DNA of 64,000 nucleotides from Azolla caroliniana (Eukaryota; Plantae; Polypodiophyta): positions 21,700,001-21,764,000 of the forward strand of contig JBHGNT010000008.1 of assembly GCA_043228905.1 (NCBI GenBank), written 5' to 3'. The notes under the pieces were generated by a model. The model was not told the origin of the DNA. It saw only the letters and a list, made by a program, of their open reading frames with translations, and ran no database searches. Position numbers and translations under genes: made by a program. Below, one piece after another: positions 1 through 64,000 of the stretch (within the stretch, counting starts at the first letter, position 1; each line of letters opens with the position of its first letter).

Positions 1-647
1 TTTGGCTATTAAGTGTAAATACATTCTGCTTGTAACAAATCGAGTAATATAAAAGCATGTGTTTTGAATTCTTATGATTTCTAAAAAATCGTTTCTTATA
101 AAATAACATTGGTTGTAAAGTTTGTGATATAAATTGAGAATGTAACTTTTTGAAATTCCTCTTTTTTTAGTTACTTCTAAATCACGAAAATAGTGGATTT
201 TTAACCTTTTTCATAGTATGTTAAACATGTATGATACTGGTATCAATGTGTTTTGTAAAATCATTGAAAAAGCCCTAAAATCAATCAAAATAATCCTTAT
301 CCTTCCATTTATGCGCAATCCTTCCACTTGTGAACATGAACGTGTTTGTTGTAACTTACCTTGGTCCGGCTCGAAGCTGGGGTTGTATTCTTTCCCTTGT
401 AATATACATGATCATACATGTTTGTGCATAACGGTGTCTCTGTTGGTGTCGGGTGCATAGCCCCCTCCTTTGTTTTGTTGTACATAAGAGTCGGTGTCGC
501 GCGCATGCTCTCCCTTTCCTTTCTCTCTCTCTCGTGTTTGGCCGCATCCGGGTCATGCCCGATAGTTTTCTTGGCATTCCTTTTCTCCCTCATCCGAGAC
601 CCCCGAGGTCCCGCCCCTTTCACATGCATGCGCGTAACGACGTGACA
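1..647 (+). mobile_element. 3' part of an LTR (TGTCG..GACA gypsy family), truncated by the window start
   Basis: Ends ...CGTGACA at 647. Carries the U5 motif TCCGAGACCCCCGAGGTCCCGC, shared with the LTRs ending at 9500 and 11684 and with the LTRs of the 56985-64000 element. Followed by ACGG, where host integrase coding (TGSHPRW) resumes. Confidence 0.7.
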
Positions 648-1557
648 ACGGGTAGTCACCCCCGGTGGTGTGTATTTGAAACTCCAGAGTTACCCACAAA
701 TCCTTGCGCAAAGGATCGTTTGGAGCGGTTACGCAAAACACAAGCGGATTTATCTATTCATCTAAAACACACTCAACAAACACACAAGGTTAACGCAGAT
801 CGCCGTCGGCTTCCATCCAGTTTTAACATTGGCGATCAGGTATGGCTACTACGACGACACATCAAGACTACTCGTCGATGCGAGAAAATGGATTATCCGT
901 GATTAGGTCCTTTCTGTATTATCAAAAAAATTAATGATGTCGCTTTTCGTCTCGATCTACCTCTGCAACTTCGGATACATCCAATGTTTCATAGTTCTCT
1001 CCTCGAACCCTATCAAGACAACACCATCCCAGGTCATATTAAACAACCTCCACCCCCGATCGAACTTGAAGATGGACTTGAGTACGAGGTTGCCGCCATC
1101 CGATTCCAAGATTGTTCACAACAAGCTCTACTATTTAGTCGATTGGCTAGGATATAGTCCCAACGAGCGTACTTGGGAACCAATAGAGAATGTGACCAAT
1201 GCTCGTGCTCTTCTTGAAGACTTCCATCGTCAATATCCAGGCAAACCGGCTCCTCACACCAAAACGACTCATGACACTCGTCGTTTTAAAGGGGAGATAG
1301 TGTCATGATATGGCAAGACTCGAACCCATGACCTTATATTACATGGGTTGAGCTCTTACCATTAGGCTATGTATTGTTATGCGAAAGACATTATTTTCAT
1401 TTAAGTTTTACTATAGAAAATTGATGTATATTCCAGATTTCTTTGGAACATTCTAGAAACTTTAGGAGTACTGAGAACACTATAAAATGAGGCACAAGGC
1501 ATTATTTCGAACCAAATCAGTTCAACGCCAGACTTAAGCCTCCTAGCCTTCCTTACA
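648..1557 (+). mobile_element. 3' fragment of a Ty3/gypsy chromovirus (Tcn1-like): integrase C-terminus, chromodomain, PPT, 3' LTR
   Basis: Translations GDQVWLLRRHIKTTR..KMDY and YYLVDWLGYSPNERTWEP (chromodomain), with stops and frameshifts. PPT AAAGGGGAGATAG at 1288-1300. Homologous to the element at 21526-26205. Confidence 0.85.
1301..1557 (+). repeat. 3' LTR of the chromovirus fragment
   Basis: Starts TGTCATGA right after the PPT, the same start as the LTRs of the 21526-26205 element. TATAAAA at 1481. The end at CCTTACA (1557) is tentative. Confidence 0.65.
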
Positions 1558-1585
1558 TATTCAAGAGCGGTGGGGGAGGATAAAG

Positions 1586-3174
1586 ATGGATGAAGAATAT
1601 CTCATGAAGGCAATGTCAAAGATGATGATGGAATTTTCAAGAAAAGGGAAACGACGAGATGTGGCCCAACAAGTCGTCGAGAGTGTGATCAAGCAAGTCG
1701 ACTATTTCAACGATGTTGAAGTCCAAAATTTTCTAAAAGCCTACAATGCCAAGATGGATTCGAGATGTGTGAACGAAGCTATGACGTTGGAGTCATTTTG
1801 TCGCGTGGTGGCTGAACTGATCTACAAAGAGGTAAAAGAGCTTCGAGAAGCTCAGGATTCATGGGTGACTTTCGAGGAGGCTCTATTGGAGGCTTATGGC
1901 TACGAGAGACCAAAGGGACGAGGATAGCGTGAGTTCGACCAGTGGGTGGCATCGGTGAAGACCCACCAAAGCGCAAAACACGCATTCCTAGACTTCGAGC
2001 ATCATTTTTCTCAACTCTTGGGGCGGGAACAAAGATTGGTGGGGGTGGATAAGGTCCTATTGTTCGTGAAGAGAAGGTTCGATGGTAGTCGACATAGAGG
2101 CCATGAGGAGAGAGGCATTCAAGAACTTAAAGGTGCAAGTCGAGGCCAAAGAGAAGCTTAAAATGGAGATAAAACTCAGGCAAAAGGTGATCGAGGAAGA
2201 AGAGACCTGTCAACAAATGAGGATTAATGATGCGGCTAATACGAAGGCCCAGGTTCGGTACAACGGTACCACGGGAGAAGGTGTAGAACAAACCACCTTC
2301 TCATCCTATGGAGAAATGACGGCCAAGGATGAGGCCGATCACTCGAGGACGACGAATGCCACTTTGAGGGAGGATGAATGTTTCGGAACACATTTTGTAT
2401 CCGAAACATCGGGTGATGAAGGTGCAAGAACGAGAACGTCTTGTGCGATCGAGGGAGAAAGAGTGTGAGGTCGATGTGATTGAGAAGGTTGCCATGAAAA
2501 ATCACATCGAGTCAGAGGTGGCTATGGACGAGTCGACAGCGAATGGCCGTGTCGAGACTTTCCCAACACTTGATCTAGAGACTTGGGCAGTTGTGTCCGA
2601 GAGCCAACATGAGACCCAACAGAAGCAGAGTGGTGGGGAAGCAAAGATTGAAGCCAATGCGAATAACAATGTTACAATGAAGATGGATATGGACGAGTCG
2701 ATGGCAGATGGCCATGTCAAGACTTTCTCCACACTTGTTCCAGAGACTTGGGCAATTGCGTTCAAAAGCCAACGTGACACCCAAGAGACGAAAGGTGGCG
2801 GCAAGGAAGCGAAGGTCGAAGTTGATACATGCGACGAAGAGGGAAGCATAATCGAGGCTTGCTCGATCAATAAGGTCAATGGGTACAAGGCCCATGAGTC
2901 TGAAGAGACATCCATGGAGAATGGCGCCGAGTTGAAGAGGGTAGACGACGATCATGAGGACTTTCCCCACAAAGGTTCTAGAGAATCGGGCATTAACTGA
3001 TGTAAGATCCAAGAGACAGAAGGTGGCAGTGAGGAAGCAAAGGTCAAAGCCGATGCGAACAACCTTAAGGTGGAAGTGGTTGAGGGTAGCACGACAAAGG
3101 CGGACTACGAAAACATATGGATCCCTCCACACTCGTTCGAGAGACTATGGCATTAACCAATGTAAGACCCAAGA
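1586..3174 (+). pseudogene. Degenerate gag plus acidic-repeat ORF of the non-autonomous element (continues at 10097-10800)
   Basis: Broken ORFs 1586-1927, 1946-2161, 2082-2468 and 2374-3000. A unit like F(P/S/T)xxxxETxAxxxxxQxxTQ recurs here and at 10180-10620. Confidence 0.6.
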
Positions 3175-3618
3175 TGTTGAGATACAAGCTCAACATTGGC
3201 CGGATCGGCTGTGCAAGCCGAGAACCAAATCGGTTGGGATCGATCGGTTAGGCCGGACCAGTGCGTAAACCAGGTGCGTAAACCGATGCGTAGACCGGCG
3301 CGCAATGAGAAGTCGTAGCGGTGTGTAAACCGCGAGGCCGTTGGAAAGATATTCCGCATAGGAATATATTTTGGGAGTTAGTGTAGAGCTCACTTATGAG
3401 CATTGAAGTACGTGTCAGTACTTCTGTCAGTCCATATGGACTTGTATAAAAGTGCTCATTGAGCACATCCTATGTACAGATTGAGTATTATTTTTTAATA
3501 GAGTTTTTTGTGTGCATTCTCTCTGTCACTCCCGCGTATTGTGTATATTCAAGCTCTCCATTAAACCCACGCTTCTGTGTTCAGTTTTCTATTGCTTCCG
3601 CACGCTATTCTTTTAACA
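3175..3618 (+). repeat. 5' LTR of the copia at 3175-10091
   Basis: TGTTGAG..TTTTAACA. Direct repeat of 9673-10091 with extra GTGCGTAAACC-like units. Confidence 0.9.
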
Positions 3619-3707
3619 TGGTATCAGAGCGCAAGGGTTGAGAACCTTTGCAGCCGACCTTAGCTCAAGAAGAAAACCTAACCTTCGTAAAGAACAGGAA
3701 AAACAAA

Positions 3708-6700
3708 ATGGATAGAGGCATGGCTAGCTTGCTTCCAACAAAGAAGCTCAACAGAAACAACTATATGTCTTGGTCTTACAAGATGCACCAGTACCTGCTC
3801 GGGCACGGTTTATGGTGCTACGTCGACGGAGCAAATGACACAAAACCCGATTCGACACACAAAGACTTCCCGGCTTGGGAATAGTCGGCAAGCAAAGTTC
3901 TCTACTACTTCGCTTCTTGTGTGGGAGAACAGCTTCTGAGCTATATTTGGGATGCGAAAACGCCAAAGGATGCTTGGGGAAATCTGAAGAAGATTTTCGC
4001 CGCAGGAGCTGAGCAACTTACAACAACACGACTTGTCGGTGGCTGATTACACCTCGAAGATCAAAGAGATATGCGACTCCTTAGCCTCTATCGATGTGAA
4101 CGTCGAGGAAGGCGAGATGGTGCAGATCTGTCTCAGGGGACTGGTGTCGAAGTTCGGAGTGTTCCGAGCTGCTATATGTACACGGGAGAATACGTCGTCA
4201 TTTTTCGACCTACAATCGATGCTCCTTATAGAGGCGAACCACGTGGGTGCGTCGACGAGCGCACATGCTGACAACAAGATGTTGTACACGGAGGGAGATA
4301 GGCCTCGTGGTCATGGCGGACAAGGCGAGTCAGTGTGCAATGGAAGCGGCTAACAGGACCGAGGAAGGAGGCACCGAAGTGATGCCGACAACAATTCCGG
4401 ACCCTCCGGAAACAGGGAGAGTCGAGGCGACGAGAACCAACAAGGGAAATCCGTCGTGGAATGCTAGTACTATGGCAAGAAAGGCAACAAGGAGAGCGAG
4501 TGTTGGAAGAAGCGCGCTGATTCAGAGAGGACTGGATCCAGATCAGGTTCTGGACAAACCAACAGGGGTAATCAGCATCGATCGCACTACGCCGAAGAAT
4601 CCGAAAAAGCCGAAAAAGGGTCAGCCTTCGTGACGAGACACGAAACAAACTCAATGAAGAAGTCCACCCCGAAATCGGACGAGGTTTGGTACATCGACTC
4701 CGGCACATCAAACCACATGACGTGCCACAAGGAGTGGTTCTCATACCTTGAGAAACCGATGCAACCAAGAGTAGTCACAACCGGAGACGAAACTCCGCAT
4801 GCGATCATGAATATCGGTGAAGTTCACTTGAGCCATGTCGGGCAGAAAGGGAAACTCATGAATGTGTTACATGTTCCAACAATCACGAAGAACCTAGTGT
4901 CGGTCGGACAGATCGGCGACCAGGGGATGCAGGTTCGGTTCACGCATCTTGGGTGCTTCATCGAGGAAGAAGGACGAGTTATTGCGCAAGGGTGTAGAGA
5001 CGGGAGGATGTTTATCCTCGACTCTAGTGAAAGTGGCACCGCAATGTTCACGAACGTACAAAAAGTCGAGTCGGATATCGACTTATGGCACAAGTAAATA
5101 GGCCACTCACCTATCAACGGCTTCAGGACCTGCAATCGAAACAAGTTTTGTTCGGATTGCCCAAATTTAGTGGCCAAAAGGCACAAATTTGTGAAGCCTG
5201 CCAGCTAGGGAAGCAACACCAACTTCCTTTCCCTAACGAGCGTAACCACATCCGGAACAAGCTCGACTTGATACATTCTGATGTATGGGGGCCGGCCCAG
5301 AACGTTAGTCTTAGCGGGAGTCGATATTTCGTCTCCTTCATCGACGACTATACACGGCACACGTGGATCTACCTCATTGAGAAGAAGAGTGAACTCTTCG
5401 ACTGTTTCCGAGACCTCAAGAGTTTCGTCGAACGGGAAACAGGAAGAAAGATCAAGTCCCTGCAATTGGATGGCGGAAAAGAGTACTTTTCTGGTCAATT
5501 CAACGGGTATCTACAACAGATGGGAATTCGGCGCGAATTCAGTTGCAGATATACGCCGGAGCAAAACGGCGTGGCCAAAAGGAAAAATCGGTCGGTTGTG
5601 GAAGCTGTGCTGGCAATGCTGGAAGAAAAGAGCTTGCCCAAGTTCTATTGGGTTGAGGCGGTACGAACCGACGTATACATCCAGAATCGGATCGGAGAGA
5701 AAGTGTCGGTGCATGAGCTGTATTTCAGAAGGAAGCCGAATCTAAGACACTTGCGAGTTTTCGGTAGCATTGCGTATGTGCATGTGCCGAAGGAGAAACG
5801 GAGGAAGTTGGACACGAAAGCTGAGAAGTGTATCTTAGTCAGTTATTCGGAGGAATAGAAGGTTTATAAGTGTTATAATCCCCAAACAAAACAAGCTCGC
5901 GTGAGCCGCGATGTTGTGTTTGACGAGTCTACGTCTTGGTACTTGCCTCCGACTCCAAACCTCAACTCCAACTCCGGATCTCCAGACCCGAGTTCTAACG
6001 ATGAGGTCAGCGAGGCTGAAATGCCTCCGAATGACCACGAAATCAAGGCCCTCGATGAGAGTCCGATTTCATTTCGGTTAAGTGGACCGAACGAGTGATT
6101 GGTCGGTTTGACCAGTTTGAAGAAGAGTTGGCGAGTAGTGGAGACTCGGTCGTACATTCCCCGCGTAGGAAGCCGAGGAGACAGCTTACGCGCAAGGAAA
6201 AAGGGAAGAAGAAGGTATCGGATTACGGCACGGATAGGAACGAGTTAGATCGACGCGAGTCCAACTCCGCGGGAAGTGATGATGAGTCTTCGAGAGTGAA
6301 ATCCGCTTTGACTAAGAAAGCGTCAACATCGGCTAATGAGCAATTACGCCGATCTACCTGCCAGAAGAACCCTGTTGTGCGGTTCGAATACAATGAGTAC
6401 ATGGTGCGTCACTATGTGTACATGACCCGTGTAGCGGAAGTGCGTGAGCCGGAGAGCTACGCAGAAGCGGCGAAGGACGCGAATTGGCATACTGCAATGG
6501 AGGAAGAGATGTGCGCATTGGCTAAAAATGAAACCTGGGACCTAGTTGGCGCACCGAAAGGTGTGAAGCCGATCGGATGTAGGTGGGTGTACAAGGTCAA
6601 GTACAACACTGACGGCTTGGTCAACCGATACAAGGCCCAGTTAGTAGCAAAAGGCTACATGTTGCAACACGGCATCGACTACGATGAGACGTTTGCACCG

Positions 6701-9672
6701 GTCGTGAAGATGACGATCATCCGCGTTTTACAGGCAGTAGCTACAGCAAAGGGGTGGCACTTACATCAGATGGATGTAAAGAATGTGTTCTTGCGAGGTG
6801 AGCTTGACAAACAGGTGTATATGGTACAGCCCCCCGGATTTCACCCCGGATTTCACTCTGGCAGTGTGGCAGTTGAAGAAGTCCCTTTATAGACTAAAGC
6901 AAGCCCCGCGTACTTGGAACGCGAAGATGATGCAACGATTGCGTCGAATGGGCTTTGCGACGTCAAAATCAGACTCCTCACTGTTCGTCCGGAAAGGTCG
7001 ACTTGGGCCGGTTAGCATTTTACTTTATGTTGATGATTTGGTCATCACCGGCGCCGACCTAGGTGAAATTAACCGCGTAAAGCTCCAACTCGCGGCATCA
7101 TTCGACATGAAGGATCTAGGGGACCTTCATTACGTCCTTGGGATCGAAGTGATCCGCACCCCTGAAGGCATACTGATCAGCCAACGGCATTACGTGTTGA
7201 GTATGCTCTTCAAATTCGGGATGGTCGATTGTAAGTCCGTCTCGACTCCTCTGGATAGAACCGTCAAGCTTCGCCCCGATTCCGGAAAGGTATAAGACCC
7301 GACGAGGTTCCGACAGATAGTCAGAAGCCTTATATACTTGACCATCACCCGACCAGATCTCAGCTACCCGGTCGGGATGATTAGTCAGTTCATGGCACGA
7401 CCTACCAAGGAGCATCTTCAATGTGTGCAACGCATACTATGGTACATAAGCGGCACTAAGGACCGGGGGCTACTATATCTGACCAGTATAGCCCCACAGT
7501 TGGTCGAATACACCAATGCCGAATGGGCCGGCAACGTCGTCAATCGCTGATCCACGTCCGGTTTCGCGTTCTCTCTTGGGAGTGCCACGATTGGGTGGAG
7601 TAGCAAGAAACAACCCACAGTTGCGTTGTCGAGCACTGAAGCCGAGTATAGAGGAGCAGTTGTCGCGACATGCGGAGGCATATGGTTGAAGCGGCTACTT
7701 AAGGATTTGCAGGTGGAGGTATCCGATCCAACGACAATTTACTGCGACAACCTCAGCAGCATCTAGCTAGCAAAGAACCCTGTCTTCCACACTTGGACTA
7801 AGCACATTGAGGTGCACTACCATTTTGTCCACGAGCGTGTACTCTCCGGTGAAGTCGAATTTCAGTATGTTCCGATGGATCGGCAGACCGCCGACATTTT
7901 TACCAAGCCCCTTGGTCTCGATAAGTTACGGCAATTCTCGGGTGTGCTTGGGTTGCGCCACCTCGATGTGCCGAACTTGAGGGGGAGAGAAGTCCCGGAT
8001 GACCACAGAAGGGATCCGGAAAGGAGCGGAAGAGACCGTGACGCCGAGTCGGATGACGAATTCAATTTCGGATCGGCTAAAGAGGGCGAGGGCGGATCCG
8101 CAGAAGATTCCAAAAGCAGACATAAGGGGATCAGTCGAAAGAAAGAGCCGAAACCAACCAAGTGTGGGGGAGACGAAGTCATGAAGGGCGAGAAGACCGA
8201 AGACGAGTTGAAGACAGCCAACGCAGACGAAAGCGAAAACCGATCAGAGGAAGTCGAGTCGGTTCGGATGTTTGATTCGGATACGCTGAATCAACTGAGG
8301 TCCAAGCCGAAGAGAGGGCAGCAGAAGAAACGCCAACACCGTTGTCGTAAAGATTTTCGGCAATGGTGTGAAAATCGCATAAAACATACGAAATCGAGTA
8401 GGAATCATTTAAACAAATAATAGTGAAAATACTATTTTAATTAAGTTTAATATCTTAGTACAAAAAGATGGAGGTCTTCAAGAGCTTTCGAATGCACTTT
8501 ACTACATAAGAAACGGACATGTAAGTCTCAAGTTATATGGGTAGGAAGTTTGCAAAGGAAAAGAGAAAGATAAAACTGTGAGATATCCCACATAGACAGG
8601 ACAAATAAAGATCTCACAATATATATAAGGCAGAACAAAAGCTATTATCTTTGTGTTTATGTGTGGAGCATAGAGAGTTCAAGGTGACTTGAACTAAGCT
8701 AATTGGATGAGTGGGTGTGGCCTAGCTACTTGTAAAAGCTTTTGGCCAACCAAATCCGGCGGCGGAGCCGGTGACCGGCAAGCGACTCAAGATGCGGACT
8801 GAACCGGACCGGGATGCAGACTGGGTCGGACCAAACGGATGCAAATCGGACGAATCGGTCGGGTGGTGTCTTAAAGATATTTGGTCCAAAAGCCTAATAG
8901 TATTTTGTGCATAAAAGAAAAAGATATAAACAAGACTTGAACTTTGCACCTCCAAGATAGAAACCAACAAGTTTACCATTAAACCAAATCATTTCTTTAA
9001 AAATTATATTTTTATCATTACAGCTTTACATGAGAATTCTCATATTAGAGCTTGATTGAGTGACATGTGATGCATGAGCGCCAAATGGCAAACATGCATC
9101 ACATGCATTCCATGCAGTATATGCATATCTTGTACCCTCATATGCATCATATGCATGGGAGCATCTATAAAAGGGTGGATGAAAAAAATTAAAAAGGGAG
9201 CGATATATTAATCAAGAAAATTAAAAGTAAGAAATTCGTTATCCAATTGATAATATATCTTGTCTCTCAAATCTAAAGTTAAAAGTTCAATCTTATCTCT
9301 CTCACTCTCTATCTCTCTCTCGCCATATCAATCTCTCTCAACCTAAAGTCAAGCATTTAAATCTCATATTAATCTCAATCTCTCGCAATCTATCTTAAAA
9401 ACCTTTCTCGCTAAAGCTAGTGCAAACTTCCAATCCTTCCAGTCCAAGACCCCGGTGGTTCCGCCTCGCGATTCGCACATAGTGACGGATCTTCACGACA
9501 CCGCGACAGCAACGGAGCTGAGAAGGGCCGCACAAGCACACAAGCCGACCGGAAGGGTCGAGGCGCGCGGAATCGAACAGGTCGAGGAGCGCGAGCAAGG
9601 CGTGAAGCCAGAAGGAACCGGAGCGTAGATCCAGAAGAGCGGATGGGACCTCAAGTTGAGCTTGAGGGAGAG
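3708..9672 (+). pseudogene. copia gag-pol pseudogene with a long charged C-terminal extension, interrupted by the solo LTR at 8343-9500
   Basis: Multiple premature stops and frameshifts across ORFs 3648-8420. Domain motifs are recognisable. Confidence 0.85.
8343..9500 (+). mobile_element. Solo LTR of the TGTCG..GACA family
   Basis: Termini TGTCGT and ACGACA. Flanks CCGT (8339-8342) and CCGC (9501-9504). Host coding rejoins across it (KRQHR|DSNG). Shares GCGCCAAATGGC/ATGCAT-rich blocks with 12931-13851 and has the U5 motif CCAAGACCCCGGTGGTTCCGC. Confidence 0.85.
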
Positions 9673-10091
9673 TGTGGAGATACAAGCTCAACATTGGCCA
9701 AATCAACTGTGCAAGCCGAGAACCAGATCGGTTGGGATCGATCGGTTAGGCCGGACCGGTGCACAGACCGGCGCGCAACGAGAAACCGTAGCGGTGCGTA
9801 AACCGCGAGGCCGTTGGAAAGATATTCCGCGTAGGATTATATTTTGGGAGTTAGTGTAGAGCTCACTTATGAGCATTGAAGTACGTGTCAGTACTTCTGT
9901 CAGTCCATATGGACTTGTATAAAAGTGCTCACTGAGCACATCCTATGTACAGATTGAGTATTATTTTTTAATAGAGTTTTTTGTGTGCATTCTCTCTGTC
10001 ACCTCCGCGTACTGTGTATATTCAAGCTCTCCATTAAACTTGCACTTCTGTGTTCGGTTTTCTATTGCTTCCGCATGCTATTCTTTCCACA
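9673..10091 (+). repeat. 3' LTR of the copia at 3175-10091
   Basis: TGTGGAG..TTCCACA, preceded by the PPT and followed by the TSD CAAGA. Confidence 0.9.
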
Positions 10092-11022
10092 CAAGAGAAG
10101 GACGATGGCGGCGAGGAAGCAAGGGTTGAAGTTGGTGCATGCGACAAGGAGGTCAAGCAAAGCAGAATGACGGAAGCCGATGCGTGCTAGAGAGATAGCC
10201 AAGGAGATGGCCATGGAAAACACGACAAAGGAAAACGTTGATCAAGATGAGAATTCCTTCACACATGTTCCAGAGACTTCGGCAGTTGCATTTGAAAGAC
10301 AACGTGAGACCCAAGAGATGGAAGGCAGTGATGAGGGAGAGATGGAAGGTAGCGACGAGGGAAAGGTCAAAGCCGGTGTGCACTACAAAGAGGCCAAACA
10401 AAGTGTGACAACGGACGATGAGGGCCAAGCAGGCCAAGAGGATTTGAAAGGTGTTCCTCGGGAAGTGATCACGTCTTCTAATGTAAGGGAGGACACTAGC
10501 ATGAAGTTCAGAGGTATGATGGTCAACTCAAACGCGAGAGTTTACCACAACGAACGGCAGAAAGAGAGGCATGCAATATGGTCTCTTAGAGACCTCAATG
10601 TGAGCATGCACTTGAAGTGACTACGACGGGTAGTCAGCATCGACATTCGAACGAGGTCTTCTGAAGGCAAGCGTGGGACAAGAAAGAATGAAGGATCAAA
10701 GTTTCTTGACCAAGTAGAAAGACGGGATGAAGGTGGCACATACACAAATTGTGAAAGGTTATGCTCAGTAGGGACGAAGGAGGCCATCATGACAACCGGT
10801 CATGGCATTGCGAAGTGCGAGCGAACGATATGGTGGATAGGATGGCGACGATGGTTCGGTTGGAAGGAATGGACGAACTCAAAATGGAGGGACAAAGACA
10901 ATGCGGGCCAAGCACAAGAAAGGAGCAAATCAAATGTTGACAACCTTTGGCCCCACCACATCACTCTTTTCCTTCTTGGAAGTTGGCACATGCATGACGA
11001 TATGCAATTTGATGGGGGTGGA

Positions 11023-11684
11023 TGTTGTGATGTGGCGTGTTTAGTGCGAGAAAAAGTGAAAAATTGAGGATACACACATTTCACAATTAGTTATAAACAT
11101 GCAAATAAATCAATAATAAATAAACCTAAGGCCTATTGGCATCGAGTGCTTATAAAGGGGCAGAAGCTAAATAGGATTTGAGCCTTGCACCTCCAAGACC
11201 GGAGACAATTGACTTACCACTAAAGCTACTACTGAGTGCTTTAGATTTTGCATTATATTTCCTTCTCATATTCAGTATTCCATAGGAAACAAACGTATAA
11301 AACCGTGTACACAAAACCATGGTTTAAGCCTATGGTTTTGTGCATGTCATAAGTAAAACCGTGAGCACAAAACCATGGTTTTAGCCCATGGTTTTGTGCA
11401 TATCACAAGCATTGAGAGACCTATAAATGCCTCTAGTTGGGCTTGTGTAAGGGGGGGCTCAATATGTGATATCACCATCATCAATATAATACCATCATTT
11501 ATCTTCTTCTAATTATCTTCTCTTAAGTGTATCAATTTTCTTGATCTTTTCAAGTGTGACATTGTCTTCCTTGACTCAAACATCCACATCATCGTCTTTA
11601 AAATAACTTTGTGAACATCCTCCTCAGTCCAAAACCCCGGTGGTCCCGCTCAAGTAGCACACGCAGACGAGCATTTTCGTGACA
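11023..11684 (+). repeat. 3' LTR of the gag-only element (TGTCG..GACA family)
   Basis: TGTTGTGA (probable CpG-decayed TGTCGTGA)..TTCGTGACA. TATAAA near 11422. U5 motif CCAAAACCCCGGTGGTCCCGC. Followed by ACGG and host copia coding. Confidence 0.8.
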
Positions 11685-12930
11685 ACGGCAAGTGGAAGTT
11701 CTGTCGGGGAAACCTCATAGTGGCCTAAGCACAGAAAAAGGGCACATCGTATATGATGCATGCCCGACTATGCAAGTCGGAAGCAAATGTAGCAGCCAAC
11801 TCGAGTAGTGAGTTATGGCATAAGAGGCTTGGCCACATGAGTGAAAAGGGAATGCATATCCTGGCCGACCAAGAACTTCTCCCATAAGTGGAAGGAGTGC
11901 ACTTGGAGAAGTGTGTGGACTGCATAGTTGGAAAGCAGAACAAAGACGCATTCCACCCAAGACCACCGAGAAGAAGAGAAGTGCCACTGGAACTGGTACA
12001 CACGGATGTGTGCTATGTAGATGCTCCATCGCATCAAGGTGGACAGTACTTCATGACATTCATCGATGAATATAGTTGGAAGTTGTGGGCTTTCGTACTA
12101 AAGTCGAAGGACCAAGTATTGTTGTTCTTTAAGGAGTTCCAAGCAAGAGGCAGAAGAGAGTCAGGTCGGAAGTTGCAGGTTGTTCGAACCGACGACGATG
12201 ACGAATATAAAGGGTAGTTCAAAGAATAATGCAAGGCCCAAGGTATTTGAATCGAATATATAGTGTCAAAGACCCCTGAGTTGAACATGCTTGCAGAGAG
12301 GATGAATCGAACAATTATGGAAAGAGTAAGGAGCATGTTGTCGCATGCTAAGCTGCCAAAATCCTTCTAGGTTGAGCCGATGTATATGGTTGTTTACATG
12401 ATCAACATATCTCCATCAGTACCATTGAAAGGTGATGTCCCACATAGGATGTGGACAGGAAAGGAAGTCTCCTACCGGCACCTGAGGTGTTCGAATGTTT
12501 AGTGTATATGCATGTGGCTAAGGATCAGAGGTCGAAGCTCAACAGTAAGTCGAAACCATGCATATTTCTCGGGTACTCAGAAGATGAGTTCGGCTACAGG
12601 TTATGGGACTTAGTCGATAAAAAGGTGGCGAGGAGTCAGGATCTAGTCTTCTTGGAAGACAAGACAATAGAGGATTGGAAGTAACAGAAGACGGAACCAA
12701 CTTCCCAGTTGACTCTGAATACCATCGACTCAAGAAAAATCAAACAGCCAAATCTTAGTCGGTCGACTTGGAACAACCAACCAATATATACGAGTTGGAG
12801 TTGGCAAATCTTCTAAAGTCGATCGAGGAATACGAGTCGGACTCGGCTAACCCTGAGTGACCAATAGACATATATGAACCCGAGCCAAGAGAAGAGTCGG
12901 TAGAGACATCCGAACTGGAGCCAAGAACGG

Positions 12931-13851
12931 TGTCGGGGTAGTTGTGGTTTGTGCGGCGAAGTCGCGGGGACTAAGGTTAAGGGGAGTTGAAGAAACTTAA
13001 CTTTTAATAAGGCTTGTATGGTGATGTTAGAAAGGTTAAGAGTACCAAGAAGAAGAATTACAAGTAATGTGTGAGAGAGAGAGACGGGAATAGATAGAAG
13101 ATAGAGATAATATATGATTCAAGAAGCAAGATAGAGACAAAATATTATTTAAGAAGGAAGATTGAGACAAAGTATGAATCAAGAAGCAAGGGTATTTGAT
13201 ATAAACATGATGTATATTAAAAATATAATATTTTACCAACTTTACAATCCTTGATCGCAAGATGAATCTTTTCAATACCGACCCTTGATTTGAACCCACG
13301 ACCTCAACTTCGAAACAAGAGGTTCTCCACCCAATGAGCTAGTCTTCTCTACTTGATTGTCTTATTTTCTCACTCTCTCTTGATTGCTCACCTTGTTTTC
13401 CCTTTCCCCTCTTTATATAAGTGTTGCCATGCATATGGTAATGTATGGGAGCATGGCATGCATGTAATGCATGAGTTACATGTAATGCATGATCGCCATT
13501 TGGCGCACATGCATTGCATGTGATGAATGATGGCTATGTATGAAAATAGATATGGGATAAGTATAATGATGAAAATGCATTCTAAAATAATTAACCTAGC
13601 TTAGTGGTGTATGCTTGGTGCTTGGTATACAAGGTTGAGGGTTCAAGTCCCTCAATTTTACGTAGTACAATATATAGCTTCATTCTTATATCATGAAGCA
13701 CATTTATTACACACTTTTACAAATAAATAGCCTAGCCTAGTGGTATGTACATTGTACATCGTATATAAGGATGTGGGCTCAAGTCTCTCAAATATTATTA
13801 AATACAACATTTAAGCTCATTTTTATATCGTGAAGCACATTCTTCACGACA
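12931..13851 (-). mobile_element. Solo LTR of the TGTCG..GACA family, reverse orientation
   Basis: Termini TGTCGG and CACGACA. 4-bp TSD ACGG at 12927-12930 and 13852-13855. 13494-13520 is the reverse complement of the block at ~9063-9100. Confidence 0.85.
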
Positions 13852-14149
13852 ACGGGTGGAAAGAGATACCCACTCAGAGAAAGAAGAGCACCAACTACAT
13901 ATGTCAATCAATACATCCTGTTGACTCACGAAGGTGAACTAGAGTGCTATGAAGAAGCAGGAGCCAATGAGCACAAAGGAAAATGGTTGAGTGCATGCAA
14001 GACGAGATGGACTCCTTGCACGAAAATTATACCTATGGTGGAGCTACCAAAGGGTAAGAGAGCACTCAGGAATAAATGGGTCTACAAGGTGAAGACTGGA
14101 GAAGTCAACAGCACACCCAGATATAAAGCCCGTATTGTGGTGAAGGGGT

Positions 14150-14756
14150 TGTTGGGATTACGGTCCCTTCGGATGGGATGGTCGGATGTCGGAGACGAAT
14201 GCCGACAAGCCCGGTTTCGGTTTCGGAACCGGATGATGAAGACCCCGACTTCGGAGCCGGATGACGAATGTACCCGGAGAGAGATCCGGATGCAGGGACA
14301 TATCCGTGAATATGTCTGCTAAGGGCCCCTGAGGCTATAGTTGTAAATAGCCCCAAAGTCATATATGTATAAATATGACTTAGGGCAAATAGTTTTAGGG
14401 TTGCTATTCATTTTTCTGTTTTTCCACTCTAGAGGAGTGAAGAGAGAGTAGCCGTGAGAGAGAGAGAGAGAGATAGAGCGCGAGAGAGGAAGAGGACGAC
14501 GCCTCTGTGTATTTCCGCCGCCTGTGGCGAGGACAGCGAGCTCAAGGTCGTCGCCTTGCAGCTCGCCATTGTATACCTTTCTGTGCATAGTGTTGGTTTG
14601 GAGTCTTGTACTCCCGTGGTTTTTCCCGTACAGGGTTTTCCACGATAAATCGTGTGTCCTCTCTATTTTTGCATTTCCCATTTTCTGCTCCATTGATTCG
14701 CGCTTACTCGGTTGTGGCCGAGTGGTGAAGGTGAATCGAAGGGTCGATCCCCAACA
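14150..14756 (+). repeat. 5' LTR of the young copia
   Basis: TGTTGGG..CCCAACA, direct repeat of 18874-19480. Confidence 0.97.
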
Positions 14757-14786
14757 ATCTGGTATCAGAGCGAGTTGCTGCAGAAA

Positions 14787-18863: not shown

Positions 18864-18873
18864 AGGGGGAGTT

Positions 18874-28107: not shown

Positions 28108-28318
28108 TTCGGTTGATTCCTTTTGGCTAGGAAATGAGTTTAGCAAATTCGATTGCTTCCTTTTGGCTAGGAAATGCGTTTAGCACATTCGATTGCTTCC
28201 TTTTGGCTAGGAAATGCGTTTAGCACATTCGATTGCTTCCTTTTGGCTAGGAAATGCGTTTAGCACATTCGATTGCTTCCTTTTGGCTAGGAAATGTGTT
28301 TAGCACATTCGATTGCTT
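28108..28318. repeat. 40-bp minisatellite, ~5.3 copies
   Basis: Unit TTCGATTGCTTCCTTTTGGCTAGGAAATGCGTTTAGCACA repeated head to tail without spacers. Confidence 0.95.
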
Positions 28319-36074: not shown

Positions 36075-36078
<4 letters not shown>

Positions 36079-36107
<29 letters not shown>

Positions 36108-36149
36108 TGTATGTATGTATGTATGTATGTATGTATGTATGTATGTATG

Positions 36150-36181
<32 letters not shown>

Positions 36182-55565: not shown

Positions 55566-56984
55566 AAAAAGACACCATATATATATTGCTTCTCCTAATT
55601 GGCATGTCAAATTAACGACCTCATGATCTCCAAACAGTTTAGTTTACACAGAAATTTACAATTCTGTATATGTGTGTGCGGATAACTTCCTTTCTCAATT
55701 AGAGAGACGATCAGGGGCCACAAGAAGAAGAGCATACCTGAGACAATGAGCTTGATGGGAATCGCCTGTTATTATTTGGGTCGGATTTGACAGATGGGCA
55801 AAAAGAAATGGGCAATTTGTACAGAAGAAGAAGAAGAAGAAGAAGAAGGATTGTACAGAAGCAGAGATGGGGGTTTTTCTTTTTATACAGTGAGGAAGCA
55901 GGAAGAAGGTAGTAGTGAGAGCTCCATCCATGGTGGAATATTCCTTCCATCTTGACCAAAATATAGCCACAAAAGGTCAAGATGAAGACCAAAATATACC
56001 CACAAAAAGTCAATAAATCATATGTTATGTGGAAAAACTTGACTTTCATGTACATATCTATGTGTCTTAGATGTAATACTTGTTTATTATTATTATTAAT
56101 AAGAATTCCTCTTTATTTATTCATTTTCCTTAAATATTTCTTTAACACGCTAATTAATTTGTCAAACCTTTATTTCATTAAGATTCTAATCTTTTGAGTA
56201 CATCTTTTTTTTTTCCAGATCGTCTTGTTCTTCTGAACAATTAACATCTTTCTTTCTAATTATCGTCTTGTCTCTAATCTTTTGACCGCTATATCAGGAG
56301 ATGGGCATCAATTAACATATTCTGAACGACAAGTCCTTGGACTTGGCTCAAATTTTCTTATCTCTTCTAAGTTTTTTTCTCTTTGGGTTTCTTTCACGTT
56401 AATTAAGATTCTAACATGGGGGGGGGGTCTCTAGGTGAAAGCAAACGTTTGTTGCTTTTAGGGGTTTGATTCTCCTAAGGCTTATTCTTGCTTTTAATAA
56501 CTAGATCTATAAAGTAATTTGCAAATGATTGACGAACCACAAGTTAATTAATTTGGAGATTCACTATAGATTGTACATTACATGATCTTGCTTATGCCGC
56601 AAGAGAAGCAATATATCTCTTTCAAGCTAGTCTTTATTTCAATTTCAATTGCTAAATAATTTTAAAATTAATCTAGTTATTAATATTATAATTTCTAATT
56701 TTGGATTTATTTTATTTTCCTATTTGTGATTATGTTATCTAATTTGTATTTGATTTATTTTCTTAATAATAATATTATTGTCTTAATATTGTTAAGTTTA
56801 CTTTATATTTATTAATTTATTACTTTACTAATATTCTTATTTTATTTTTAATTATTATTGTAAATAAATATTTATTTTATTTCCTTTTTTAATGATATTT
56901 AGTATACTAATATTATTATCTATAAAATTTTAATTATAATGATTTAGTTGTTCAATGGTGACAACAGAAGATGGCTGGCAATGT

Positions 56985-57837
56985 TGTCGTGTCAAATCAC
57001 GTCGCGTATAAGAGCTTGGCGTGTCCGGGCGGAACCGCTGGAGTTCTGAACCAGGAGAGTGGAAATAAGAAGATGAAATAGAAGAGTGGGAAGTTGAGCC
57101 GGAAATATCTCAATAGTCACGAGTGGTTTGCAGCCCTACCCGTGAAGACAAAAAACCTTATATCGTTCCACCTACGTAACCAAATTCAGACTGTGTACAA
57201 ACACAGATTGGAAAGCCCTCTGGAAGAGCTTTCCAAAGAGCTATAGAACGTCAAAAACAGACGTAAGAATTGAGAGTTATGAAGAAAATACCGTACAACG
57301 CTACTCCTCAAACGCAGACGAAGAAGAAATGCCAAAATAGGAAAAATCACTATTTCTTCGAGAGAAAAACCCTTTACAAAATAGGACTCTCTGATTGTTG
57401 GCCCCCCCCCCCCCCCCCAATCCATGACAATAATCCTCCCCTCTTATACTAAATCGACGTCATTACATGTAGGCCATGTGGCACACACCTAGAGAAGCTT
57501 GTGCATGTGCACGATATAAAGCATGTGGGCCATGTGGCACACATGTAGAGAAACTTTGCATGTGCGTTATATGGTGCACATGAAATACATTGCATGGTTT
57601 TGACTACACAACATTTTTTCCAAAATAATGCAAATAAATCCCTAAGAACAATAATACTAAAGAACTTTGAGTCTAGAATGTAAATCAACTCCAATGAGTT
57701 GAATTAGGTGGATCTCCAAGGAGTGATGGGTCACTGAACCAAGTCGAGATGCGTGGTTGTAGTTGCGGCAAGTGTGGAATCGTGGTGGCACCAATCGGCC
57801 GTATCCCTTTATGACACGGTCGTATCCCTTTATGACA
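56985..57837 (-). repeat. 3' LTR of the tRNA-Trp gypsy
   Basis: Direct repeat of 63532-64000. Plus-strand termini TGTCGTG..TATGACA. Confidence 0.9.
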
Positions 57838-60800
57838 TGCACCCCCTCCTAACCTGCACATCCTCCGGTATGTGCCAAGTGGAGAAAATTCAACCAAAGT
57901 CTTCTTTCCTTTTATTTGAACATTTGATGCATGCTAATCATCTTCATTCAATTCCGGAATCGACATGAGAGACATCTTCTCCCCTTCAAACTTCTTGTTT
58001 ACATTCTCTTCTAGATGAGTATCATGTGATGAAACTATCGTTACCACTTCTAATTGGATACTTGTAGTTGCCACGTCATGGACCACCTCTTCTTCAACAT
58101 CTTCTTCCCAATTCGAATTAGCTTTCACGGATCATTCATCCTGCAAAATGTCGGGAACAAGAGAGACTCTTTGTTTAAAGAGTTTAATTCATTTACCAGC
58201 AATCGGAATTCGAAGAAGAGTTCCATCAAATTCTGACAAGATATATGTTCCATTTTATCGGACTTATACCACTCGATACGGCCCAAACCATCGATGAGAG
58301 AATTTTCGAATAGATTTGTGTTGATGCTCAAGGCTACTATCAAACACCAAAACCCAATCTCCTTTTTCAATGGGAATATTCCGAACTCGATGTCTCTTGT
58401 CAAATCGATCCTTATTCTTCAATCGAACTTCTTGTTGTTTCCTGGCAGCTTCAGCTATATCCTCCGGACTATTCTCTAATTGCCGAATTCGAATAGCCAA
58501 CAAATCTTCACGTTCCATCTGATCTTCCCAAGGTAAAACTCCCCAAGTGGGAATCATCCGCTCCGTAGGCATAATAGGCTTCTGATCAAAAAGTAGTTCC
58601 GATGGCATAAATCCTGTAACAGAGTTGTGAGTGCATTTATTAGCCCAGAGAGCATAAGGAAGCATGTTAGGCCACATAGAAATTCGGCCATCACATGCTT
58701 TGACCAAAGCTTTCACAATCGGACCATGGCCCCTTTCCACTTTACCATTTCCCTCCGGATTGTATGCAGTAGTCAAAGTCAATCGGATCCCGAATCTTTG
58801 GAAGAACATTCGAGCCTCATCTGAATCAAGCTCCCCTCGATCTGTTACAATCTGCCCAACATTACCATATCTACAAATTACATCCTCTAATAAAAACTTT
58901 AGAACGGCCGATGCAAACTTGTTTCGGAGAGGTCTTCCTTCCACTGGGTTGGACAAATCCTCTCGAGCAAGAACCAAGTATTTCATTTGATTTCGACCAG
59001 AGGGCATATGAACTATATCCACCATCCACTTATAATGTAACACATGTGAGTACGTCATATGTAGCTCATCTCTCACCCTATAATCAGAATACATTTGACA
59101 TTCAATGCATGATTCCACATACCTTTGGATATCCGCATACATTCCCTTCCACCAATACCGATCCTTAATCTTCGAAAATGTGTTGACCACTCCTTTATGT
59201 CCAGCCCAATGACTATCATGAAAATCAGAAATAATCTTATCTTTCTGAACCTGTAAACCGATAGCTCGAGTTGGAGGATCCTTAACTTTCTTTGCAAGTC
59301 TCCAAAGATATCCATCCTTCAAGAGAAACCTATAAGCCTTCTTCCTGAATAGCTGAAAATCCTTTGGTGTCCAATCAGGGCTTCCTTCTTGCACTTGTAG
59401 GAATTTCCCGATTTGCAATAGCTCGCCTTCATATTCCTCCTCTCTAAATTCAGGCACATGCAAACCAATCTCATTACAAAAGAATCCATAATTTATCAAA
59501 ATCATCCTCTTCCTCCAGAGAAGACGGCTCTAGAATAGTCCGTGCTTGGGACAACATATCATCCATAACATTGGTTTTCCCTGTAATGTGTCGGATCTCT
59601 AGGTTAAATGTTTTAATATAGGCAATCCATCTCAACATGGATATATTTGTAGAAGAGCATCCTGAAACCATTCCAAGGATCGACAGACAATCCATCTCAA
59701 TAACCACTTATGATCCAATCAAATAATCCTTGTCTGCTTTAATCGCAGAAACTATGCCCCACAACTCTCTCTTTATTTGAGCATACCTTCTTTGTTGATC
59801 ATGTAAAATCTTTATGCCAAACCGAATAACATATCAATCTCTAGTTTCATCCTCTTGATTAATAACCCATCCAATTCCAGTCGGACTTGCATCCACAGTC
59901 ACAAAGATAGGTCGACCTTGCTCATATATAGGTCGTTGCAAGGCTGGTGCAGATGACAAAAGTATCTTAATCTTCTTCATGGTCAATGTATGCTCCTCCT
60001 CCCATATAAACCTTTGTGTTTTCCGCAATAACTTATATAAGGGATCAGCAATATGTGCAAAATGTGGAATCCAAATATGATAAAAAACACATGCACCTAA
60101 AAACCGTCTTACTTCTTATGTTGACTTGCAGATATCCTCCATTGCATTGATGCCGTCCACCTTGCCTGGATTAGGTTTCCGACCATAGGGGCCACACAAA
60201 TGTCCCACAATCTGCACTTCAGATCTACCAAAACTTTATTTTTCTCCAGAAATTGTCAAATGTGCCTCCTCTAAATTCTTCAATATGTCTTCACAATCTG
60301 CTATATGATCTGAGACGAATTTCCGACATCCATCCGACCCAACTTCTTCATCCTTCTCCTCTTCTAGACATCCTTTAATCGGAATGTCATCCAAGAAAGG
60401 CATTGTTCGATGAGGAATGTGATCCCTGAGCACCTTATTCATTGCGTTCATCATATGAGCGACAGAATTAGTTGCGCCTTGTGATAAAGTACACATTCGA
60501 ACCAACCCAATAGGTGTACGCATTGTAGTAATATCCCTACTATCCAAAGAAAGCTGAAATTGATCATATCCGGAATACAAATCAGCCATGGAGTAGATAA
60601 CTCTACCTGCAAAAGATTCTGCGAAGGAATCCACGACGGGACCAACTCCTGAATTCCGAATCGTTACTTTGTTAACTGGTTGGAGATCTTGAATGAACCT
60701 GAGAGATCTGTTCTTTTTTGGTACTGTAAACCACCAGTTAGAATGCGGAGCATTCGAAGGCTCCAAGATACCCATCTGCACCTTCTCTTTTAGCAACTCA

Positions 60801-63800
60801 ATGAGTTTCGGAATATGAGCTCTTGGAACAAGAATTGGTTTCAAGTTCCAAGGCATATGAGGGATAGTAAAGATAATGATTAGCTCCACCAGTTGTGGGT
60901 CCACACAACCTATCTCTGAAGGTGAAAAAGCAAAAGCCTTACCATGTTGAGATAACATCTTTCGAAATTGGCTTTCTTCAGCTTGATTAAGGAAATCACC
61001 CCCTACTATCTGAAGCTTCCCTTGCGAAGACTCTGTAAACACATGACCAATCCTCCTCGGATCCCGTAACATTGGTTCTTCCTTCACCCTTTTTAGCCGA
61101 TCTACGCTATTAGCCGACAATGGTTCTGCTACCGGTCGAACTTTCCGATCCACTGTCTTATATTTAGTATGGACGCGAGCAACCATATCCATCTGATTTT
61201 GAAATGTTGCAATTTCAGCATACATAACCAATGAATTGGCCGGAATAAAAAATGATTGACCTTCATTTGAATACAAAGAATTTTCCAACTCTCCAATGGT
61301 ATCCACAAAGGAAAGTTCCGGTAGAAGAAAATGAAATTGCTCCGGTATAAGAAATATAAACTTTATTATTTCCGGAACAATTATTCTCATACAGGGACTT
61401 TTGTTGTCCCAGACTATTATAGCCCTGTTTTATAATAGTCCTATCTAAAAATCTCGATTAGAGGATACATGTAAACTATCCTTGTCTCTTTCATGATTAG
61501 GTCGAACTGTCTGAAATTGTACTGTCCTTCCACCATCCATATCTTTGATCCGAGCATAGGACGATCCATCATCCAATACCTTGGTCTCCATGCAGACAAC
61601 AACCATAAAGGGTTGCCCTAATATAACTAGATATGTATGTGGCTGAATCCTGAATAAAGAAATGTTGAAGCACAGTAACACCACCGATTGACACCTCCGC
61701 ATCTGGGCAAGCTCCAGATAACTCCTTTGATGATTGTGTTGCTGCTCGAATCCTCCAATGGTGATCAGAAGTCATTGGCCACCCTCTTTGCTTGTAAACC
61801 TCCAAGGACATGAGGTTTATCTCCGAGCCACTATCAATCAGAGCCATGCCTGCCTCCGATAAACCACCAAGTCGTACTTTCGTTTCTGTAGTTGCCCGAG
61901 CCCAGTGATTCCGAGTAAAGAGGCTCCTCGGAATATTATCTTCATGCTTCAACACTTGTGTAGATCCTTCTTTCCATCTAGCCTCCTTTGCAGTCATTGT
62001 TGTATCAACTGGAATTCACTTTCTTTGCATCTTCTCCAGTAAATCATCCTGAACTTCCTTTTTGGAGACTGCCAACAAGTCTCCTAATGGAACCGAGACA
62101 TGTTGCTTTAGAACATAATTTTCAATGAAAGAGAAAGCATCTACCTCTTGTTCCAATTCAGTTCGCATCTGGAATGTTGGAGATGACTTCTTGGATACTT
62201 GTACAGGGTTTGGTTCAGCCTTTTGCATGTCCAAATTTTGCTTTTTGGATGGAGAATGAAAATCAGCCCTCTTTAGAACTCGTTCACGATCCAACTCTTC
62301 ATCTCTTCTCCTCTTCTCCTCTACCATCATTCATTATTTGTGGGAAAAGTTGGATCACTCCAACCAGTCCTTTGACAACCATCTTCAATAAGAACAATAT
62401 GAATAGTTGGATCTTGCTTAGGCAATTCAATTAGTCGAATAACAACCAAAGTAGAATGGAAAATAGCTTGTGCATGTCGAAGCTCTTCTTCCTCCAAGAA
62501 CTTTTTCATTCCTCCTTGCCCAAAATTTGTCTTTAGTGGTTGACGAGTCACGGATGAGTGGATAAACCGATCCTTGTAGAATATGAGGTTCTTTTGCATC
62601 GCCTCCTGATGCTCCGCACACTCCGATATTCGATGCTCCAAACTGTCACACCATAGGCATCAAAAATCCCTAGTCGGAAGAGTTCGTTGCACTTGTGGCT
62701 GATGTTGCACCTTCGACATGGAAGAAATCTTCCACTCCATGAATTGCTTCACTAGGTCATCTACGTCACTTGGTTGTGGTTTCTCCATAGATGCCTCAAT
62801 CCCTGGTCCGGTCTTCAAAGAGGAGGTCGGAGTAGCATTTCCAAGTCCCTTTGAGCCCAACCATGTTCTTCTTTTCTCATATCGACGGCAAATGGACTGA
62901 ATTCGGCTCCAGTCCTCCTCTAAACCTGTTTTAGTTTCACTTGATTCCATAAGTTTTCCTAGCTCTACCCTATCCGCATAGGGAATTGAGTGAAGGAAGA
63001 GAACCACCTTCTCTGGTTCAAGCAAAGTTTGCTCCCGAACTGAGAGTTGTCGGAACTTTGCTTCAAAATCAGTAAGGGTCTCTAGAACTGACCCATGCTT
63101 CTTGTCCAACTCCATTCAAGCTTCAAATGCCCGCCGAATCATCTTGGTGGAATCAACATAATTAAAAACACCGAGCAAATCACGACGGAATGCCTCCCAT
63201 TCAACATCTTGCGTTTGAAGCTCTTCTATGATAGGAAGAACATCGGCAGCTACCACACGATGGAAGTTGGATTTCTTCAAATCAACGGGAATATTGCGAT
63301 GTAACATCTCCGCATCGAACACCTGCAAAAATCGGGTCACATCCTTTCCAGTGAATGGACCTAACTTCTCTAATACCCCATCCACAGCTCGATCTAGGTT
63401 CGGACTCCTCTCCCTCCCTGTGAGAACAACTTCTAGAATTGATTGAAGTTGTGCAGCATCCATGTTAGAAGAGGTAAAATCCCAAAGAACTGACTCTCCT
63501 TGCCGCCCATTTTCATGTCGGGTTCACCACATGTCGTGTTGAAGCACGTCGCGTATAAGAGCTTGGCGTGTCTGGGCGGAACCGCTGGAGTTTTGAACCA
63601 GGAGAGTGGAAATAAGAAGATGAAATAGAAGAGTGGGAAGTCGAGCCGGAAGTATCTCAATAGTCACGAGTGGTTTGCAACCCTACCCGTGAAGACAAAA
63701 AACCTTATATCGTTCCACCTACGTAACCAAATTCAGTGTACAAACACAGATTGGAAAGCCCTCTGGAAGAGATATCCAAAGAGCTATAGACCGTAAAAAA

Positions 63801-64000
63801 CAGACGTCAGAATTGAGAGTTATGAAGAAAATACCGTACAACACTACTCCTCAAACGCAGACGAAGAAGAAATGCCAAAATAGGAAAAATCACTATTTCT
63901 TCGAGAGAAAAACCCTTTACAAAATAGGAATGCCAAAATAGGAAAAATCACTATTTCTTCGAGAGAAAAAACCTTTACAAAATAGGACTCTCTGATTGTT
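56985..64000 (-). mobile_element. Non-chromovirus Ty3/gypsy retrotransposon with a tRNA-Trp PBS, degenerate; 5' LTR truncated by the window end
   Basis: 3' LTR 56985-57837; 5' LTR from 63532. PPT AGGAGGGGGTGCA on the minus strand (57838-57850). PBS TGGTGAACCCGACATGAA matches the 3' end of plant tRNA-Trp as I recall it (17/18). Gag from 63463, protease LIDSGSEINL, RT FIQDLQPVNK/PFLDD, RNase H VDASPTGIG, integrase WMVDIVHMP..TDRG..NGKVER. No chromodomain. Confidence 0.92.

What the first reader, a model, noticed from the sequence alone, without database searches (positions are those of the whole stretch)
641..13855. LTR family that appears to insert at CpG-centred 4-bp targets (ACGG/CCGT)
Seen: four independent insertions of related LTRs have these flanks: ACGG (648-651), CCGT/CCGC (8339-8342 and 9501-9504), ACGG (11685-11688) and ACGG/ACGG (12927-12930 and 13852-13855). 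CCGT is the reverse complement of ACGG. The flanks are host sequence, since they continue the interrupted reading frames (TGSHPRW; GKWKFCRG). The TSD is 4 bp, unlike the 5-bp TSDs of the copia and Tcn1 elements here. The pol-encoding relative at 56985 has the flank ATGT, compatible with CpG-decayed ACGT. Established: sequence-specific 4-bp targeting is known for some insect errantiviruses (ZAM/tirant, CGCG), while most plant LTR elements show little sequence preference. Inference: the integrase reads CpG, possibly methylated, which would steer insertions into other TEs without a chromodomain. The sample is small (4-5 sites).
Basis: partly seen in the sequence, partly recalled or inferred. Interest (0 to 1): 0.8.

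Follow-up and report, generated by a model that had tools for sequence, protein, structure and literature searches.

The report
Phygy-type retrotransposons inserting at CG sites
Four jumping-gene copies here, and 22 of 23 junctions of their relatives, sit at four-base sites with CG in the middle; this matches a habit already published for the Phygy retrotransposon lineage, to which they likely belong, and whether they sense DNA methylation is untested.

Summary
The four LTR ends and their flanks are at the stated coordinates, the flanks are host sequence, and the duplication is 4 bp. The CG preference is family-wide: of 23 junctions from relatives selected by primer site and not by flank, 22 have a central CG and 1 has TG, against 4.7% background. 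Contigs of two runs agree. The motif is not ACGG but V-CG-B (T first is avoided, A last is absent). This is largely known: REXdb lists the Phygy clade with 4-bp NCGN targets and a tRNA-Trp primer, and Phygy is reported in ferns. These elements share the TSD, size and lack of chromodomain; no Physcomitrium reference sequence was available for a tree. The likely mechanism is sequence readout by an integrase with a 4-bp stagger that bends DNA at a central pyrimidine-purine step. CpG abundance alone accounts for nesting in other TEs. Nothing here supports methyl-CpG reading. One new lead: the clade's integrase is one residue shorter at the known target-contact site.

The parts
1..647 (+). X1: 3' part of an LTR of the clade (its start lies outside the window), inserted in the integrase region of a Tcn1-type element
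   Evidence: 3' end matches 26 primer-site-bearing loci, best 80% over 70 nt
648..651 (+). downstream target copy ACGG of X1 (host Tcn1-type sequence)
648..1557 (+). host of X1: Tcn1-type remnant (integrase end and 3' LTR), itself inserted next to the primer-site region of X3
   Evidence: right boundary approximate
1566..3173 (+). X3 internal region, part 1: decayed gag-like sequence, no pol
   Evidence: tblastx to the sequence just after the primer site of L131, L118, L033, L066
3174..10090 (+). copia element A (TSD CAAGA) inserted in X3; host of X2
8339..8342 (+). left TSD CCGT of X2
8343..9500 (+). X2: solo LTR, 1158 bp, TGTCG...CGACA, 12-bp terminal inverted repeat with one mismatch
9501..9504 (+). 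right TSD CCGC of X2 (one mismatch to the left copy)
10096..11022 (+). X3 internal region, part 2, ending in the polypurine tract
11023..11684 (+). X3 3' LTR, 662 bp
11685..11688 (+). downstream target copy ACGG of X3 (host copia B)
12927..12930 (+). left TSD ACGG of X4
12931..13851 (-). X4: solo LTR, 921 bp, in copia B
13852..13855 (+). right TSD ACGG of X4
56981..56984 (+). flank ATGT of X5; fits a decayed ACGT, but the second copy lies outside the window
   Evidence: decay is inferred
56985..57837 (-). X5 3' LTR (about 853 bp), preceded by a polypurine tract
57838..63531 (-). X5 internal region: primer site (63514-63529), gag, protease, RT, RNase H, integrase; broken by stops and frameshifts; no chromodomain
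   Evidence: protease assigned by eye from the sequence
63532..64000 (-). X5 5' LTR (runs off the window); 95.5% identical to the 3' LTR over 402 nt

Best explanation
These are LTRs of several families of one chromodomain-less Ty3/gypsy clade, likely Phygy, that insert at 4-bp sites with a central CG, and the integrase likely selects that site by reading DNA sequence and bendability rather than methylation. Shown: 4-bp duplication, V-CG-B motif, one primer site shared by all five window families, a related pol, no chromodomain. Inferred from retroviral intasomes: a 4-bp stagger needs a sharp bend at a central pyrimidine-purine step and disfavours T at the cut. This clade narrows that step to CG, possibly through its shortened target-contact segment after the second catalytic Asp. 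In this window CpG is concentrated in TEs, so a CG reader would land in other elements as a by-product. Solo LTRs (X2, X4) would have arisen later by LTR-LTR recombination, and X3 would have moved using a pol supplied in trans.
For: Junctions: 17 of 20 automatically called LTR starts are preceded by NCGN, background 4.7%, P 2e-20; 22 of 23 after curation. T lies 5' of the CG in 1 of 44 half-sites against 35% of flank CpGs, P about 1e-7. Contigs at the 3' end of X2 break at the terminus (47 and 66 contigs, majority letters starting ACG) or after CCG or CCGC (33 and 30 contigs) in 2 of 2 runs laid. Relatives of X1-X5 all carry the same primer site. Pol-bearing loci are 62-65% identical to a protein that is 85-89% identical to X5 and group with X5 and Riccia elements, apart from Tcn1-type and Tat rows. 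Phygy is listed with a 4-bp NCGN TSD, tRNA-Trp primer, 7.7-10 kb and no extra domain. 4-bp-TSD retroviruses favour a central YR step and disfavour T/A at the TSD ends. PFV integrase is the best sequence and fold match. 1163 of 1571 counted CpGs lie in the TE block, which is 43% of the length.
Against: No Physcomitrium Phygy sequence could be placed in the tree, and the tree is the quick version with long-branch warnings. That the primer is tRNA-Trp is recalled; two scans for the tRNA gene found nothing. The metagenome junctions are single flanks, and the one two-LTR contig (L044) has unlike flanks, CCGC and ACGT. Flexibility alone would also admit TA, CA and TG, so a base-specific contact is needed and none was shown. 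X5's own flank is ATGT. Sequence data cannot separate methylated from unmethylated targets.
Confidence: 0.75

Rival explanations
1. The integrase, or a partner, prefers methylated CpG and so homes into silenced TEs without a chromodomain.
For: All four window insertions lie in other TEs. At least 7 of 23 outside junctions have flanks with coding similarity to retroelements. Phygy nests in Tcn1 in Physcomitrella and is enriched at centromeres of a liverwort.
Against: No methyl-binding or chromo domain was found in 3 of 3 pol proteins scanned. Flank CpG density fits plain CpG-anchored choice. TG/CA centres, which carry one methyl in the same place, are used in only 1 of 23. Drosophila ZAM-group elements also use CGCG in a genome with little CpG methylation (recalled).
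Confidence: 0.13
2. A separate CG-targeting clade, sister to or convergent with Phygy, not Phygy itself.
For: No reference Phygy sequence was tested; the nearest named proteins are from Riccia and then the fungus Tilletia. TatI also has a 4-bp TSD and a tRNA-Trp primer.
Against: TSD length, NCGN motif, size, absence of chromodomain and of an extra RNase H all match Phygy together. TatI carries the extra RNase H. Ferns are reported to hold Phygy and Tcn1.
Confidence: 0.1
3. The motif is an artefact: part of the LTR end, a 5-bp TSD with a shifted boundary, or chance in CpG-rich TEs.
For: In X2 and X4 the base left of the TSD is A, so a 5-bp reading fits these two alone.
Against: LTR ends before the primer site read GACA by the search pattern and mostly CGACA. 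The base at -5 is A in only 1 of 20 loci. 11 different 4-mers occur, in both orientations. P 2e-20 against local background.
Confidence: 0.02

Closest known systems
Phygy clade, non-chromovirus Ty3/gypsy (REXdb; Neumann et al. 2019, PMC6317226)
   Same: 4-bp TSD with NCGN preference; no chromodomain or extra RNase H; size about 7.5-7.9 kb against 7.7-10 kb; primer site recalled as tRNA-Trp; nesting in the integrase region of Tcn1 as in PMC6911290.
   Different: Described there as specific to Physcomitrella, here in a probable fern (already reported for ferns in PMC13477047). The motif is narrower here (V-CG-B). Many families with unlike LTRs, including gag-only derivatives.
Drosophila ZAM-subgroup errantiviruses (PMC5408687)
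   Same: Sequence-specific palindromic target with CG (CGCG).
   Different: Insect lineage, often with a third ORF; the target is CGCG, whereas here ACGT, CCGT, ACGC and ACGG dominate. Convergence is inferred; no ZAM protein was placed in the tree.
Prototype foamy virus and other 4-bp-TSD retroviral intasomes (PMC4422553)
   Same: Closest solved integrase; 4-bp stagger, central YR step, T and A disfavoured at the TSD ends.
   Different: Only a weak YR bias there, near-strict CG here. The segment that holds PFV Ala188 is one residue shorter in this clade.
TatI and Selgy clades (REXdb)
   Same: 4-bp TSD; TatI mostly uses tRNA-Trp.
   Different: TatI has an extra RNase H; Selgy is about 5 kb with a tRNA-Ala primer; no target motif is listed for either.

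Membership tests
Phygy | Ty3/gypsy domain order RT-RH-INT | tested here: met
Phygy | 4-bp TSD | tested here: met
   X2 and X4 pairs; 925-nt skip; -5 base test
Phygy | NCGN target preference | tested here: met
   22 of 23 curated junctions
Phygy | tRNA-Trp primer-binding site | tested here: inconclusive
   One TGG-starting primer site is shared by relatives of all five window families. Its identity as tRNA-Trp is recalled; searches gave no confirmation.
Phygy | No chromodomain, no additional RNase H | tested here: met
   Pfam on P0121, P0135, P0137; X5 integrase ORF
Phygy | Short element, 7.7-10 kb, coding region filling the interior | tested here: met
   L044 spans 582-8440, 7.9 kb; X5 is about 7.5 kb by estimate, just under the range, with its 5' end off the window
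Phygy | RT-RH-INT phylogeny with Physcomitrium reference elements | not testable with these tools
   REXdb FASTA too large to read; no Physcomitrium-named protein; one search shows only a clade with Riccia elements
Tcn1 chromovirus | Chromodomain, 5-bp TSD, self-priming | tested here: not met
TatI | Additional RNase H domain | tested here: not met
   far from the Erythranthe extra-RNase-H row
methyl-CpG-guided integration | Preference for methylated over unmethylated CpG | not testable with these tools
   no methylation or in vitro data; indirect test needs no such preference

The most novel reading that the evidence does not exclude
The clade's integrase reads methylated CpG directly at its target-binding surface, through the shortened loop after the second catalytic Asp. 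It would be a chromodomain-free, reader-free route into heterochromatin and a natural methylation-sensitive integrase.
Probability: 0.13. Interest if true: 0.75.

Novelty: new member of a known kind. Interest (0 to 1): 0.3.

Why it matters
The CG target is real but already published for Phygy, so the main claim adds a host and a refinement: V-CG-B, across many families. What could matter is the mechanism. Only one retrotransposon paper with the word NCGN turned up, and the passages read offer no explanation. A near-strict CG integrase with a clade-wide one-residue shortening at the known target-contact site gives a testable handle on how integrases gain sequence specificity. It also shows a simple way for an element to favour other TEs in a CpG-poor genome. 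If methylation turned out to matter, it would be a new targeting principle.

Tried and rejected
No whole genome is held for this window, so no genome-wide TSD logo was possible. Viral contigs held no relative of the integrase. The 12 primer-pattern hits there had no tRNA genes and were not used. Scans for the cognate tRNA gene found 0 hits, and the paper search for the primer sequence showed it in none of 15 listed papers. Three protein searches and a cluster look-up gave no Physcomitrium-named sequence. The Atlas search returned only generic pol clusters. The supplements of PMC7466625 did not tie RLG2/RLG3 to Phygy. The first read-laying was too long to show terminal loose ends. A CG-1 domain hit in P0121 (E 0.03, below cut-off, absent in 2 of 3 proteins) was rejected as chance. 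The predicted integrase model (mean pLDDT 78.8) confirms the fold but cannot place the missing residue. Kitamura 1992 on CpG methylation and integration is not held; only its title was seen. Earlier scan findings: none. Rejected readings: ACGG as LTR end, a 3-bp or 5-bp TSD, strict ACGG/CCGT specificity.
Full report
Anatomy. Bases 1-26206 are a block of LTR elements, nested up to about 21140, and the rest holds plant genes, including a 1002-aa PPR frame. A non-seed plant, probably a fern, is inferred from the PPR type (recalled) and from Phygy-like plus Tcn1-like elements occurring together (PMC13477047, one passage seen). The nest reads: copia B holds X3, X4 and copia C; X3, a gag-only element whose 5' LTR is outside the window, holds a Tcn1-type element and copia A; the Tcn1-type element holds X1; copia A holds X2. 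X2 (1158 bp, +) and X4 (921 bp, -) are solo LTRs with both TSD copies. X1 and X3 show one flank each. X5 (56985 to beyond 64000, -) is a decayed element of about 7.5 kb with RT, RNase H and integrase.

Observation. All flanks are as stated. The flanks of X1 and X3, and the sequence shortly after X4, align to the host proteins of the intact Tcn1-type and copia copies. Contigs of 4 of 4 runs laid (4 of 15 listed, three studies) skip 12923 to 13849, which is the 921-bp LTR plus 4. Neighbours have 5-bp TSDs. In their own orientation X1 and X3 are followed by ACGG, while X2 and X4 carry CCGT, so the motif is not part of the LTR.

Family-wide test. I dropped 8: 7 without the U5 motif, 1 duplicate. 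The 3' ends of X1-X5 all have relatives among the 114 kept. Of 63 loci with at least 350 nt upstream, 28 gave an LTR start supported by another LTR; 7 were preceded by a polypurine tract and 1 had only 3 nt of flank. Of the 20 left, 17 had a central CG, 1 TG and 2 neither; background 4.7%, P 2e-20. The two misses (L031, L041) were mis-called starts: one belongs to another element, one is an LTR-internal motif. Adding two further starts and three 3' flanks, and leaving out two 3' ends followed by a degenerate primer spacer and the two L049 rows that match those mis-calls, gives 23 junctions: 22 CG, 1 TG. Loci were chosen by primer site, not by flank. They are single flanks; the only contig with two complete LTRs and both outer flanks has unlike flanks and LTRs 75-77% alike. 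Independently, contigs laid on the 3' end of X2 in 2 runs break at the terminus (47 and 66, majority starting ACG) or only after matching CCG or CCGC (33 and 30). Random flanks would give about 1 such per 100 (my estimate); 43 rows were hidden and the aligner's clipping rule is not known.

Motif. The first base is A 11, C 6, G 4, T 1 and the last is T 10, C 6, G 6, A 0. Taken symmetrically, T precedes the CG in 1 of 44 half-sites against 35% of flank CpGs. The motif is V-CG-B. Avoidance of T and A at these positions is reported for 4-bp-TSD retroviruses and called nearly universal (PMC4422553; abstract and sections 6 and 14 read), so it is a general integrase rule added to a CG core.

Identity. 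PMC6317226 (passages, section 9, supplement 5 read) says that only Phygy among plant lineages has a target preference, NCGN, with 4-bp TSD in 186 of 186, tRNA-Trp primer in 81%, 7.7-10 kb and no extra domain. Its element list and FASTA could not be read and bear on membership and on whether V-CG-B is new. PMC6911290 (passages) finds Phygy-into-Tcn1 the commonest among similar nested pairs in moss, six of them between integrase and chromodomain, near where X1 lies. The pol of X5 groups with primer-site loci and Riccia elements, apart from Tcn1-type, Tat and insect rows (46 rows, quick tree). No chromodomain or extra RNase H was found in 3 of 3 proteins. The primer's identity as tRNA-Trp is recalled. 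Membership is therefore likely but not shown by phylogeny.

Mechanism. PFV integrase is the best match by sequence (E 2e-15) and by predicted fold. A 4-bp stagger favours a central YR step, which CG is; strict CG needs an added base contact that I could not show. In the alignment to PFV, the stretch after the second catalytic Asp is one residue shorter. Of 240 proteins examined, 231 aligned there: all 199 at 45% core identity or more have the short form, mostly DRGEL, while 30 of the 32 more distant have the long form, 1 is short and 1 is unclear. These proteins are related, not independent. The site corresponds to PFV Ala188 and HIV Ser119, which contact target bases 2-3 positions outside the cut, so a role in reading the central CG is a lead only.

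Methylation. CpG frequency is 2.4-7.2% in the host TEs and 1.2-1.4% in the genic part; 1163 of 1571 counted CpGs lie in the TE block. Mean flank density at 21 outside junctions is 4.3%, between random window positions (2.9%, p 0.07) and CpG-anchored positions (5.0%, p 0.32). The window stands in for a genome here, so this is a weak test, but it shows that sequence readout is sufficient. Nothing favours methyl reading; nothing excludes it.

Literature limits. Ten searches were run. NCGN with retrotransposon gave 2 papers, 1 relevant. No listed title or abstract start tests methylation dependence of Phygy; subscription papers are not covered. PMC5408687, PMC12885004, PMC7466625, PMC13469084 and PMC8282616 were seen as passages only.

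Verdict. A real and well-supported feature, but a new member of a known kind. Interest 0.3; the methyl-reader reading has probability 0.13 and would deserve 0.75.

Noticed in passing
window 58267-59529 (-), integrase ORF: Clade-wide short form DRGEL after the second catalytic Asp, one residue shorter than in PFV and most distant relatives.
   Followed up: partly
L063:56-59, L020, L053, L055:1885-1888: Clade members inserted into other clade members (gag, pol, and by eye the region just before the polypurine tract), each at a CG site.
   Followed up: partly
L026, L016, L043, L046, L055, L059, L061, L084: LTRs with a polypurine tract before and a primer site after: tandem elements or collapsed assemblies.
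   Followed up: no
window 1566-3173 and 10096-11022: Gag-only non-autonomous derivative (X3) with relatives L066, L050, L084, L029.
   Followed up: partly
window 14150-19480: Copia C has an open 1388-aa frame and LTRs identical over the 300 nt compared: a very recent insertion, CpG observed/expected 1.03.
   Followed up: no
window 13585-13841: X4 LTR has a 121-nt internal duplication (76%) with tRNA-like looking sequence (likeness judged by eye); ARAGORN finds no tRNA gene in the window.
   Followed up: no
window 40457-43465 (-): 1002-aa pentatricopeptide-repeat frame with about 306-nt repeats (family name recalled).
   Followed up: no
window 32400-35500: A further decayed gypsy-like element seen by eye; lineage and TSD not determined.
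   Followed up: no
window 28068-28358, 36001-36560, 44721-44909: A 40-bp tandem array, a long TATG/TG microsatellite, and a 66-nt inverted repeat with a 57-nt spacer.
   Followed up: no
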